Source: a phage
Assembly (NCBI GenBank): GCA_024683775.1
Contig: GCA_024683775.1_4106.1
Length of the DNA stretch: 64,000 bases
Strand: one strand, 5' to 3'
The position numbers and the translations under genes are program-made. The notes beneath the pieces are model-generated. The model saw nothing but the letters and a program-made list of their open reading frames with translations. It did not search any database and had not been told where the DNA came from. Shown here piece by piece: positions 21,846-22,332 of this stretch; within the stretch, counting starts at the first letter, position 1, and each line of letters begins with the position of its first letter.

Positions 21846-22010
21846 ATGACGCATGAAGAATGGATGAATGACATTAATTTTAGATATTCGGGTATCGGTA
21901 GTTGGAGAAAATATCATTGGGAAATCATATCAGACCCAGCAGAATACGATAAACTTATGAATGATGAAGTGTATCCGTGGTTCTTTATTGAAATAATGGT
22001 ACGATTATGA
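21846..22010 (+). CDS. MTHEEWM mini-protein, copy 1 of a tandem trio (54 aa)
   Basis: my translation MTHEEWMNDINFRYSGIGSWRKYHWEIISDPAEYDKLMNDEVYPWFFIEIMVRL. Confidence 0.45.
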   Translation: MTHEEWMNDINFRYSGIGSWRKYHWEIISDPAEYDKLMNDEVYPWFFIEIMVRL

Positions 22011-22171
22011 CACATGAAGAATGGATGAATGACATTAATTTTAGATATTCGGGTATCGGTAAATGGCTAAAGTATCATTGGGAATTCATTTCAGAGCCAC
22101 ATCTGTATGATAAACTTATCAACGATCCAGCATATGAAATGTACTTAATTGAACTACTGGTACGAATATGA
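22007..22171 (+). CDS. MTHEEWM mini-protein, copy 2 (54 aa)
   Basis: ATGA-coupled; MTHEEWMNDINFRYSGIGKWLKYHWEFISEPHLYDKLINDPAYEMYLIELLVRI. Confidence 0.45.
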   Translation: MTHEEWMNDINFRYSGIGKWLKYHWEFISEPHLYDKLINDPAYEMYLIELLVRI

Positions 22172-22332
22172 CACATGAAGAGTGGATGAAACACCAAAAA
22201 ATAAAGTGGAATCCTTATTATCTACCATTAGATTCTAGAATGTGGGATGTTATACGTGTTAAGTGTATGTACAAAGCATATTTAAGTACTGAACTCGACG
22301 AAGAAGTACTGATGCATATCGTGCACCGATGA
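22168..22332 (+). CDS. MTHEEWM mini-protein, copy 3, diverged (54 aa)
   Basis: ATGA-coupled; MTHEEWMKHQKIKWNPYYLPLDSRMWDVIRVKCMYKAYLSTELDEEVLMHIVHR. Confidence 0.4.
   Translation: MTHEEWMKHQKIKWNPYYLPLDSRMWDVIRVKCMYKAYLSTELDEEVLMHIVHR

What the first reader, a model, noticed from the sequence alone, without database searches (positions are those of the whole stretch)
21846..22332. Tandem triplication of overlapping 54-codon MTHEEWM mini-genes, with a fourth diverged copy at 20342-20512
Three consecutive 165-nt ORFs each start MTHEEWM and are joined by ATGA stop/start overlaps. Copies 1 and 2 are highly similar (MTHEEWMNDINFRYSGIGSWRKYHWE...), copy 3 keeps the N-terminus only, and a fourth ORF at 20342 begins MTHKEWLDELKFKHNPFGFG. 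All are under the 60-aa cutoff of the ORF track. Their position right after tRNA genes and before a class-B promoter, with recent duplication, suggests dosage or diversification of a small effector.
Basis: seen in the sequence. Interest (0 to 1): 0.6.

Follow-up and report, generated by a model that had tools for sequence, protein, structure and literature searches.

The report
Jumbo-phage family of tandem mini-genes
The three overlapping 54-codon genes are real, selected protein-coding genes from an old, lineage-restricted family of tiny helical early proteins in 121Q-like jumbo coliphages; the family reaches 22-23 tandem copies in uncultured relatives and its function is unknown, most plausibly host takeover or counter-defence.

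Summary
ORFs 21846-22010, 22007-22171 and 22168-22332 (54 aa each, ATGA overlaps) and 20342-20512 (56 aa) exist and are homologous; all hit PHROG 10970 (unknown function). The window comes from an Asteriusvirus (121Q/PBECO4-like) jumbo coliphage, where these genes are already annotated as hypothetical proteins. A fifth, distant member (20160-20345) overlaps the fourth copy by ATGA. Orthologue comparisons show purifying selection (pN/pS 0.19-0.34), so this is not a frame-independent DNA repeat. The duplication is not recent: A1 and A2 each have orthologues in the most divergent cultured relatives. Their near-identical first 55 nt fit gene conversion. Copy number varies between phages (two or three genes in the post-tRNA array, 5-9 members per locus). 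Two uncultured relatives carry colinear arrays of 22-23 diverged paralogues. AlphaFold gives a four-helix mini-domain with no informative structural neighbour. The genes lie in a 64-kb unidirectional region with 39 near-consensus sigma-70 promoters, which implies early expression. The best reading is a birth-and-death multigene family of small cytoplasmic early proteins that probably bind host targets. The function is inferred, not shown. Interest is moderate.

The parts
20160..20345 (+). E-type member (61 aa, phrog_31562), a distant fifth member of the superfamily; its stop overlaps the start of the next gene (ATGA)
   Evidence: phrog_31562 at E = 6e-41. hhalign of the E-type alignment against family alignment A4 gives 82.7% probability, E = 9.5e-6, 55 aligned columns. 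E-type genes in L013 hit profile A4, which contains no E-type sequence, at 4.5e-4 and 2.5e-3. Recruited with no decoy hits in the controlled iteration. pN/pS = 0.25 against 121Q, p = 1.7e-5.
20342..20512 (+).
   Evidence: phrog_10970 at E = 4.6e-29. It links A1, A2 and B at E about 1e-6 to 1e-7. pN/pS = 0.26 against PBECO4, p = 2e-4. AF2 gives four helices at mean pLDDT 83.6.
21609..21638 (+). Promoter-like site (TTGGAA-18-TATAAT with TG extended -10), the likely start of the unit tRNA-Ser / tRNA-like / A1-A2-B
   Evidence: 10/12 match with TG before the -10 hexamer. This is a consensus match only; function is inferred.
21649..21738 (+). tRNA-Ser(tga), immediately upstream of the array in all cultured relatives where tRNAs are annotated
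   Evidence: ARAGORN; Rfam tRNA at 61.7 bits; the same position in relatives.
21743..21825 (+). Non-canonical tRNA-like element: no D arm, anticodon loop CUUCUAA (UCU), encoded CCA. It ends 20 nt before the A1 start codon
   Evidence: Rfam tRNA at 32.6 bits, above the gathering score of 29. Missed by ARAGORN. Fold. Conserved in 121Q, Turkey5 and A4, with a compensatory acceptor-stem change in Turkey5.
21846..22010 (+). A1 member (54 aa), first gene of the tandem array; AAAGG Shine-Dalgarno-like motif 7 nt upstream of the ATG
   Evidence: ORF. phrog_10970 at 6.6e-27. pN/pS = 0.19 against phage A4, p = 4e-6. AF2 gives four helices at mean pLDDT 79.
22007..22171 (+). A2 member (54 aa), paralogue of A1 (70% aa identity); ATGA overlap with A1
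   Evidence: It has its own orthologues in 121Q, ph0011, Turkey3, Turkey5, JNE01, WPEC5 and CMSTMSU. pN/pS = 0.22 against Turkey5.
22168..22332 (+). B member (54 aa), always the last gene of the array; ATGA overlap with A2
   Evidence: phrog_10970 at 1.7e-25. Present after the A-type gene(s) in all 13 genomes examined. pN/pS = 0.34 against Turkey5.
22343..22370 (+). Promoter-like site of the next transcription unit (TTGACT-16-TATAAT), 11 nt after the B stop codon
   Evidence: 11/12 match.

Best explanation
The three overlapping ORFs, the copy at 20342 and a fifth distant copy at 20160 are genuine protein-coding genes. They belong to an old, lineage-restricted multigene family of about 55-residue soluble, aromatic-rich, four-helix proteins found in 121Q-like (Asteriusvirus) jumbo phages and their uncultured relatives. 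Shown: homology, purifying selection on each paralogue, a shared predicted fold, variable copy number, and very tight gene packing. Inferred: host RNA polymerase transcribes the genes early from sigma-70-type promoters, as a polycistronic unit together with the upstream tRNA genes. Translation is coupled through the ATGA overlaps. The invariant M-T-H-x-E-W start is a structural feature: Thr2 is the helix N-cap, Glu5 the capping-box partner, and Met1/Trp6 form a hydrophobic staple, so helix 1 begins at the very N-terminus. The family evolves by birth and death, through unequal crossing-over and gene conversion seeded by the shared 5' ends. Each paralogue is then kept by selection. The most likely function is that each small protein binds and modulates a different host protein (host takeover or counter-defence). 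This is the usual role of small early phage proteins that diversify and turn over between strains. That last step is not demonstrated.
For: Coding status: for all five genes, synonymous changes exceed expectation against orthologues, with pN/pS 0.19-0.34 and p = 2e-3 to 4e-6. The motif is conserved as protein while its codons vary: Thr2 in 89/92 members using ACA, ACT, ACG and ACC; His3 as CAT or CAC; Trp6 in 83/92. Phage A4's A1 orthologue carries many synonymous changes within the first 55 nt. Family: phrog_10970 and phrog_31562; 15 clusters among 5.8 billion proteins; 22 representatives at E<1e-3 among 1.84 billion, all but one 43-64 aa (the exception, P0031, 1052 aa, is a weak multi-stretch match that was not examined); hhalign link to the E type; decoy-controlled iteration with no false hits. 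Age and turnover: A1 and A2 orthologues occur in Turkey5/JNE01; the post-tRNA array has three genes in nine genomes and two genes in PBECO4, slurp01, UE-S1 and A4; C-type copies number 1-3. L013 and L015 carry 23 and 22 members in colinear arrays, with one-to-one orthologues at 45-81% identity plus lineage-specific gains and losses. Gene conversion: there is 1 difference in the first 55 nt against pS 0.40 and pN 0.26 in the rest, and the ACG/ACA and GAC/GAT variants are shared mosaically between A1 and A2 across genomes. Fold: two independent AF2 models (A1 at pLDDT 79, C at pLDDT 83.6) have the same four helices, and helix 1 starts at residue 3. Early expression: 39 sites matching 11-12 of 12 sigma-70 consensus positions lie on the + strand, 0 on the - strand, about 3 expected. 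The related phage CBB has RpoD-like promoters concentrated in a short-ORF region that its authors regard as early host-takeover genes (PMC5259590). Packing: the junctions are -4 overlaps or gaps of 1-3 nt. Properties: hydrophilic, pI 4.7-6.9, 0-1 Cys, 13-21% aromatic, no membrane segment.
Confidence: 0.55

Rival explanations
1. The unit is a non-coding tandem DNA or RNA repeat, for example a regulatory or recombination element linked to the tRNA cluster, and the ORFs are incidental.
For: TRF detects a 161-nt tandem repeat. The first 55 nt of copies 1 and 2 are nearly identical. The repeat abuts tRNA genes.
Against: Substitutions against orthologues are biased towards synonymous and third positions in every copy. 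Paralogues with only 13-30% protein identity keep the same length, start motif, C-terminal motif and predicted fold. The motif's codons vary synonymously. No member lies on the minus strand and no decoy was recruited.
Confidence: 0.02
2. They are capsid-packaged internal proteins like those of T4. The invariant N-terminus would be a capsid-targeting and protease-processing signal, and the variable remainder would be injected with the DNA to neutralise host defences.
For: The pattern of an invariant short N-terminus with a variable body in a hypervariable locus of small, neutral-to-acidic proteins resembles the T4 IP loci; that resemblance rests on my own knowledge. The C type has L-D-E at residues 7-9, which resembles a T4-type (L/I)xE site.
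Against: The genes lie in a sigma-70-promoter-dense early region, not among head genes. Conservation extends along the whole protein, for example H24-W25 and R53. Residues 2-6 are modelled as an integral part of helix 1 in both models. The A and B types have no (L/I)xE near the N-terminus. After cleavage, a domain of about 45 residues lacking helix 1 would probably not fold.
Confidence: 0.07
3. They act on tRNA or translation, for example as small cofactors that protect, process or modulate the phage tRNAs encoded next to them, or that counter host anticodon nucleases.
For: Family arrays abut tRNA genes in every lineage examined where the flanks are visible. This holds in the window and all cultured relatives. 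In L013 the array ends at 7428 and tRNA-Leu begins at 7478. Members interleave with tRNA genes in 121Q and Turkey5. The proteins are rich in aromatic residues. The neighbouring tRNA genes include unusual D-arm-less variants.
Against: The proteins are neutral to acidic (net charge -5 to 0), which is unfavourable for RNA binding. Nothing resembles a known RNA-binding fold. The adjacency may simply reflect that tRNA genes are scattered through the early region of these phages. C and E members in the window are separated from intact tRNA genes by several unrelated ORFs.
Confidence: 0.1
4. A1, A2 and B are subunits of one hetero-oligomeric phage complex. Translational coupling would set their stoichiometry, and the complex would serve a conserved phage function such as a transcription or replication accessory rather than host-specific interference.
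For: A-type and B-type genes are always adjacent in the same order and joined by ATGA overlaps in all 13 cultured genomes and in L014. Each is under purifying selection. Array order is conserved between L013 and L015.
Against: A2 is dispensable: it is absent from PBECO4, slurp01, UE-S1 and A4. Member number ranges from 5 to 23 between lineages, which is unusual for a fixed complex. No multimer prediction could be run.
Confidence: 0.15

Closest known systems
PHROG families phrog_10970 (A, B and C types) and phrog_31562 (E type), 'unknown function'; GenBank 'hypothetical protein' genes such as 121Q gp125-127 and gp118 and PBECO4 AGC35066/67
   Same: They are the same proteins. All window copies give full-length profile matches at E = 1e-24 to 1e-41. 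Orthologous genes are annotated in the deposited relatives.
   Different: The catalogues hold them as two unrelated families with no description. This work adds the link between the two PHROGs, the subtype structure, the array dynamics and the predicted fold.
Early host-takeover gene clusters of large virulent phages: the RpoD-promoter-rich short-ORF region CBB_390-546 of phage CBB (PMC5259590), and by my own knowledge the SPO1 host-takeover module and the T4/T5 early small ORFs
   Same: A unidirectional block of many short ORFs of unknown function, driven by strong host-type promoters. The genes are tightly packed and overlapping.
   Different: Those clusters are mostly made of unrelated ORFans. 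Here a single superfamily supplies 5 members in the window and 22-23 consecutive genes in relatives. No host-shutoff activity has been shown for any member.
Virus multigene families that evolve by tandem duplication, such as the African swine fever virus MGF families and poxvirus 'genomic accordions' (own knowledge)
   Same: Tandem paralogue arrays in a large dsDNA virus, with copy-number differences between strains, lineage-specific gain and loss, and gene conversion.
   Different: This virus is a phage and the proteins are about 55 aa. The paralogues are old and individually conserved (13-70% identity) rather than recent high-identity amplifications. A link to host range or immune evasion is untested.
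T4 internal proteins (IPI-III) and their polymorphic loci in T4-like phages (own knowledge)
   Same: Small proteins with a conserved N-terminal segment and a variable body, in a locus that varies between related phages.
   Different: This is an early-type promoter context. Conservation runs through the whole domain, the N-terminus is part of the fold, and there is no general protease-site motif.

Membership tests
PHROG 10970 / 31562 (uncharacterised phage protein families) | Significant full-length match to the family profile HMM | tested here: met
   A1 at 6.6e-27, A2 at 1.4e-24, B at 1.7e-25 and C at 4.6e-29 to phrog_10970, covering profile positions 1-55/56. The E type matches phrog_31562 at 6.3e-41.
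Protein-coding gene (as opposed to a non-coding tandem repeat) | Substitutions between orthologues respect the reading frame (synonymous excess) | tested here: met
   pN/pS is 0.19-0.34 with binomial p = 2e-3 to 4e-6 for all five genes. The conserved motif uses synonymous codons.
Protein-coding gene (as opposed to a non-coding tandem repeat) | Evidence of translation (ribosome footprints or peptides) | not testable with these tools
   No expression or proteomic data for Asteriusvirus were found in the papers read.
Recent tandem duplication / 'genomic accordion' (dosage amplification) | Copies nearly identical along their whole length and specific to one strain or a few close strains | tested here: not met
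   A1 and A2 are 70% identical in protein, with dS 0.41. Each has orthologues in the divergent phages Turkey5 and JNE01. Only the first 55 nt are homogenised.
Birth-and-death multigene family | Diverged tandem paralogues, each with orthologues in related genomes, plus lineage-specific gains and losses | tested here: met
   Subtypes A1, A2, B, C, C2, C3 and E are distributed differently across 13 genomes. The L013 and L015 arrays are colinear, with extra or missing members. A truncated remnant survives in 121Q (L003 4708-4809).
Early (host-RNA-polymerase-transcribed) phage genes | Location downstream of sigma-70-type promoters in a promoter-dense unidirectional block | tested here: met
   There are 39 sites matching at least 11/12 positions on the + strand, 0 on the - strand, about 3 expected. 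Sites flank the array at 20823, 20967, 21609 (10/12) and 22343.
Early (host-RNA-polymerase-transcribed) phage genes | Transcripts appear in the first minutes of infection | not testable with these tools
   No transcriptome is available.
T4-type internal proteins (capsid-targeted) | N-terminal targeting peptide ending in an (L/I)xE protease site, shared by all members | tested here: not met
   Only the C type has L-D-E at residues 7-9. A1/A2 (WMNDINF) and B (WMKHQKI) lack such a site. The N-terminus is modelled as part of helix 1.
T4-type internal proteins (capsid-targeted) | Presence in the virion | not testable with these tools
   No virion proteome of an Asteriusvirus was found in the papers read.
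Anti-CRISPR / anti-defence operons | Association with an aca-type HTH regulator gene, or a match to a known anti-defence or defence family | tested here: not met
   None of the ten neighbouring ORFs has a Pfam domain. There is no PADLOC hit. No dedicated anti-defence library was available.
Anti-CRISPR / anti-defence operons | Demonstrated inhibition of a defence system | not testable with these tools
   This needs experiments.

The most novel reading that the evidence does not exclude
The MTHxEW mini-proteins could be a phage counterpart of the immune-evasion multigene families of large eukaryotic viruses. On this reading, an ancient tandem battery of up to 23 four-helix binders is maintained by birth and death and reshuffled by gene conversion. 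Each paralogue would neutralise a different host factor or defence variant, so the array's composition would set host range among E. coli and Salmonella strains. A bolder variant ties the family to the adjacent non-canonical tRNA genes, as a joint counter-measure against host tRNA-targeting defences.
Probability: 0.25. Interest if true: 0.7.

Novelty: new member of a known kind. Interest (0 to 1): 0.4.

Why it matters
Most genes of jumbo phages are unexplained, and small early proteins are where new host-takeover and anti-defence mechanisms keep being found. This family is short, soluble, confidently modelled, under selection and naturally varied: five paralogues here and more than twenty in relatives. 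That makes it a convenient panel for expression, toxicity and pull-down screens. It also documents a birth-and-death tandem multigene family in a phage, including gene conversion at the 5' ends. Finally, it corrects the impression of a recent dosage duplication. For annotation, it links two PHROGs that are currently held separately.

Tried and rejected
1. T5-like context ('class-B promoter'): rejected. The window is 98.6-99.2% identical to Asteriusvirus genomes.
2. Non-coding repeat: rejected by codon-aware substitution analysis.
3. Nucleotide-level constraint on the shared 5' end: rejected. Phage A4's orthologue has many synonymous changes there, so gene conversion is preferred.
4. Functional assignment by sequence: Pfam, NCBIfam, PADLOC and PDB sequence profiles returned nothing. 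Two large homology searches and one exhaustive HMMER search returned only unnamed small proteins from the same kind of contig.
7. Neighbouring genes as clues: ten neighbours have no Pfam domain.
8. Literature: papers on fEgEco12, Sharanji and CBB do not mention this family and give no expression data. General searches for phage tandem small-protein families were uninformative.
9. Additional family members elsewhere in the 64-kb window: none beyond the five.
10. The idea that Met-Thr-His is an N-terminal metal-binding (ATCUN-like) motif was considered but could not be tested. The capping-box and hydrophobic-staple reading explains T2, E5 and W6 but not the frequent His3.

Full report
**1. What is in the sequence**

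ORFs 21846-22010, 22007-22171 and 22168-22332 are each 54 codons and begin MTHEEWM. Consecutive genes are joined by ATGA stop/start overlaps. ORF 20342-20512 (56 codons) begins MTHKEWLDELKFKHNPFGFG. Tandem Repeats Finder reports a 161-nt period with 2.1 copies at 82% identity, score 464.

- Copies 1 and 2 (here A1 and A2) are 70% identical in protein.
- Copy 3 (B) and the copy at 20342 (C) are 25-28% identical to A1.
- The relationship is not a chance resemblance of N-termini. Within the window's 747 ORFs, C hits A1, A2 and B at E about 1e-6 to 1e-7.
- All four match one profile, phrog_10970, over its full length at E = 1e-24 to 5e-29.

**2. Where the window comes from**

The region is 98.6-99.2% identical to *Escherichia* phages EC.P1, fEgEco12, vB_Ec-M-J and BF17. 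It is about 91% identical to 121Q and PBECO4. These are jumbo myoviruses of the genus *Asteriusvirus*, with genomes of about 350-380 kb. The T5-style vocabulary in the finding ('class-B promoter') therefore does not apply. In every deposited relative the mini-genes are already called as CDSs and annotated 'hypothetical protein'.

**3. The family is larger than the finding**

ORF 20160-20345 (61 aa, MHPKTFDEWF...) ends in an ATGA overlap with C. It belongs to another PHROG, 31562, but it is a distant member of the same superfamily:

- An iterated profile recruits it through diverged members in phages Turkey5 and JNE01.
- A profile-profile comparison of E-type sequences with the family alignment gives 82.7% probability, E = 9.5e-6, over 55 columns.
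- E-type genes in an uncultured relative hit a family profile that contains no E-type sequence, at 4.5e-4 and 2.5e-3.

A decoy-controlled iterative search over all ORFs of the window and 15 related loci recruited no shuffled decoy and no minus-strand ORF in five rounds. It assigns 5 members to the window, 5-6 to most cultured relatives, 9 to Turkey5/JNE01, 23 to contig L013 and 22 to contig L015. No other member lies in the 64-kb window.

**4. They are coding genes under selection**

Each of the five window genes shows a significant excess of synonymous change against a suitably diverged orthologue:

| Gene | Compared with | pN/pS | p |
|---|---|---|---|
| A1 | phage A4 | 0.19 | 4e-6 |
| A2 | Turkey5 | 0.22 | 1e-3 |
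| B | Turkey5 | 0.34 | 2e-3 |
| C | PBECO4 | 0.26 | 2e-4 |
| E | 121Q | 0.25 | 2e-5 |

Among the 92 of 108 unique members that start M-T/S, the start motif is conserved as protein while its codons vary:

- Thr2 occurs in 89/92 and uses ACA, ACT, ACG and ACC.
- His3 occurs in 67/92 (CAT 49, CAC 18).
- Glu5 occurs in 72/92 and Trp6 in 83/92.

The coding reading stands. Translation itself remains unobserved, and I found no transcriptomic or proteomic data for this genus.

**5. The duplication is not recent**

A1 and A2 each have their own orthologues in 121Q, ph0011, Turkey3, WPEC5 and CMSTMSU. They also have orthologues in Turkey5 and JNE01, the most divergent cultured lineage. The duplication therefore predates the radiation of the known genus.

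The impression of recency comes from the first 55 nt, which differ at a single position. Codons 19-54 have pS 0.40 and pN 0.26. That 5' identity is not a nucleotide-level functional constraint, because phage A4's A1 orthologue carries many synonymous changes there. The ACG/ACA (codon 2) and GAC/GAT (codon 9) variants are shared mosaically between A1 and A2 across genomes. Recurrent 5' gene conversion between neighbours is the simplest explanation; this is an inference.

PBECO4, slurp01, UE-S1 and A4 have only A1 and B at this site. The roughly 23 nt shared by the 5' ends of A2 and B would allow a clean deletion by unequal recombination, which is also an inference.

**6. Turnover and expansion**

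The post-tRNA array always has the order A-type gene(s) then B. C-type copies number one in the window, two in 121Q, Turkey3, ph0011, A4, WPEC5 and UE-S1, and three in PBECO4 and slurp01. Turkey5 and JNE01 instead carry five to six more diverged members. 121Q retains a truncated remnant at L003 4708-4809.

Two metagenomic contigs from different samples are striking. L013 (78-kb contig) has 26 consecutive 50-66-aa genes ending 50 nt before a tRNA cluster. L015 (5.8 kb) consists almost entirely of such genes. The two arrays are colinear, with one-to-one orthologues at 45-81% identity plus lineage-specific insertions and losses. This is the signature of a birth-and-death multigene family whose members are individually retained. 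It is not a transient amplification.

Nearly all junctions in these arrays are 4-nt overlaps or gaps of 1-3 nt.

**7. Distribution**

The family is narrow:

- tblastn finds it only in 35-37 *Escherichia* and *Salmonella* Asteriusvirus records.
- A profile search of 5.8 billion proteins returns 15 clusters.
- An exhaustive HMMER scan of 1.84 billion representatives returns 22 hits at E<1e-3. All are stand-alone proteins of 43-64 aa except one weak multi-stretch hit in a 1052-aa protein, which I did not examine.
- A broadened profile adds nothing with a functional name.

No member is fused to another domain. One 'E. coli' entry sits on a 357-kb contig, which is probably a phage genome.

**8. Structure**

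AlphaFold2 with a 31-sequence alignment gives the same topology for two subtypes:

- A1: mean pLDDT 79, helices at 3-13, 22-28, 31-38 and 44-51.
- C: mean pLDDT 83.6, helices at 3-14, 23-30, 32-40 and 47-54.

In both models helix 1 starts directly after Thr2. This fits a reading of M-T-H-x-E-W as N'-Ncap-N1-N2-N3-N4. That is a Ser/Thr-x-x-Glu capping box (T2, E5) with a hydrophobic staple (M1, W6). These are established helix-start motifs. The assignment here is my inference, and it does not explain the frequent His3.

**9. Expression context**

The window is an extreme promoter field. On the + strand, 39 sites match TTGACA-N16-18-TATAAT at 11 or 12 of 12 positions. None does on the - strand, and about 3 are expected from a first-order Markov model. 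Nearly all ORFs are on the + strand.

Sites flank the array at 20823 and 20967 (both 12/12), at 21609 (10/12 with an extended -10, just before tRNA-Ser) and at 22343 (11/12, 11 nt after the B stop). No + strand terminator-like site was found in 19000-24500.

For the related phage CBB, the authors describe RpoD-like promoters concentrated in a block of short hypothetical ORFs. They regard that block as the early host-takeover region (PMC5259590). By inference, A1-A2-B is transcribed early by host RNA polymerase together with tRNA-Ser(tga) and the adjacent tRNA-like element. Translation would start at the AAAGG-N7-ATG of A1 and be coupled through the ATGA overlaps.

**10. Most likely function, and rivals**

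The firm conclusion, at about 95% confidence, is that these are real genes of an old, diversifying multigene family of tiny four-helix proteins.

The functional step is inferred. Small, soluble, domain-sized proteins that are expressed early, restricted to one lineage, present as many diverged paralogues and variable between strains are typically binders of host proteins, acting in takeover or counter-defence. I give that reading about 0.55, including the coding claim.

The rivals are:

- **Hetero-oligomeric phage complex (0.15).** The invariant A-then-B order and coupling favour it. The dispensability of A2 and the range of 5 to 23 members count against it.
- **tRNA- or translation-linked role (0.10).** The constant adjacency to tRNA genes favours it. 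The acidic charge counts against it.
- **T4-like capsid-targeted internal proteins (0.07).** The conserved N-terminus favours it. The early context, whole-length conservation and the lack of a shared protease site count against it.
- **Non-coding repeat (0.02).** This is effectively refuted.

**11. Novelty and score**

The genes and the two PHROGs are already in the databases, and small paralogous early ORFs are expected in jumbo phages. What is new is descriptive:

- the link between two catalogued families;
- the subtype structure;
- the age of the A1/A2 duplication and the 5' gene conversion;
- the predicted fold;
- the 22-23-gene colinear arrays in uncultured relatives.

I classify it as a new member of a known kind (phage early small-protein families, viral tandem multigene families), with moderate interest (0.4). 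If the array proves to be a battery of host-factor or defence inhibitors that sets host range, interest would rise to about 0.7. I put that at about 25%.

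Noticed in passing
window 21743-21825: A non-canonical tRNA-like gene directly after tRNA-Ser(tga). It has a 7-bp acceptor stem, no D arm (7-nt linker), anticodon loop CUUCUAA (UCU, Arg), a variable region of about 23 nt, a good T arm and an encoded CCA. Rfam tRNA scores 32.6 bits, but ARAGORN misses it. The same element occurs in 121Q (annotated there as tRNA-Leu(taa)), Turkey5 and A4. Turkey5 has a compensatory acceptor-stem change (C-G to U-A). slurp01, ph0011 and UE-S1 have a canonical tRNA-Arg(tct) at this spot.
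   Followed up: partly
window 20741-20811: A second D-arm-less tRNA-like element. Its acceptor is GCGGCAU/AUGCCGC, its anticodon loop is CUUCCGA (UCC, Gly) and its T arm is GUCGA-UUCGAUU-UCGAC. It lies where 121Q, slurp01 and UE-S1 carry a canonical tRNA-Gly(tcc), and only the anticodon-loop sequence is shared. The MFE z-score is -2.2. Neither ARAGORN nor Rfam (E<=1) detects it. Two canonical tRNAs replaced by D-arm-less look-alikes with the same anticodons may deserve a study of their own, for example as decoys or as variants resistant to host anticodon nucleases.
   Followed up: partly
window 1-64000: Extreme strand-specific density of near-consensus sigma-70 promoters. There are 39 sites with at least 11/12 matches on the + strand and 0 on the - strand, against about 3 expected. 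Almost all ORFs are on the + strand.
   Followed up: yes
window 24439-26136 (-) and 34214-35371 (-): Two large ORFs (565 and 385 aa) lie on the opposite strand to everything else, with no Pfam or PADLOC match. The 565-aa ORF lies among the tRNA genes. A minus-strand hypothetical CDS of the same length (1698 nt) is annotated in JNE01 and UE-S1 but not in most relatives, which suggests an inserted element.
   Followed up: partly
L013 2716-7428; L015 81-4378: Two uncultured phage contigs (Logan ERR4503900_124 and SRR34023383_7456) carry colinear arrays of 22-23 family members. These are the largest expansions seen. The L013 array ends 50 nt before a tRNA cluster (Leu, Gly, Ser, Arg, Met).
   Followed up: yes
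window 23545-24102: A 185-aa ORF between tRNA genes has an HNH-like sequence (…NHKDGNKLNNEDWNLEW…). Relatives annotate HNH/NUMOD4 homing endonucleases at varying places in this tRNA region. This fits the mosaic gain and loss of tRNAs and mini-genes here.
   Followed up: no
window 24164-24430 and 26494-26572: ARAGORN calls a tRNA-Ser with anticodon ACT and three tRNA-Met(cat) genes, two of them unusually long (90 and 79 nt). At what looks like the corresponding position (not aligned here), relatives annotate a tRNA-Ser as (act) in 121Q and slurp01 and as (gct) in vB_Ec-M-J. Some of these tRNAs may be non-canonical or mis-called.
   Followed up: no
L003 4708-4809 (121Q gene 116); L012 6836-6985 (CMSTMSU): A truncated family member survives in 121Q (MMHLVSNKAYYDAFFGKNATIEVHVYYAITFGD), matching the C-terminal half of a Turkey5 paralogue. 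In the UNVERIFIED CMSTMSU record, the B-type copy has lost its MTHEEW start, probably through a frameshift or a sequencing error.
   Followed up: partly
window 20523-20735; L013 1801-2013: A 70-aa ORF next to the C-type gene (MRVVINPAKSF…EEMKHLIVID) has a clear homologue beside the big array in L013 (MKVKINPNANF…EEMKHLTIIED). So the array's neighbourhood is syntenic across these distant lineages. It has no Pfam match.
   Followed up: no
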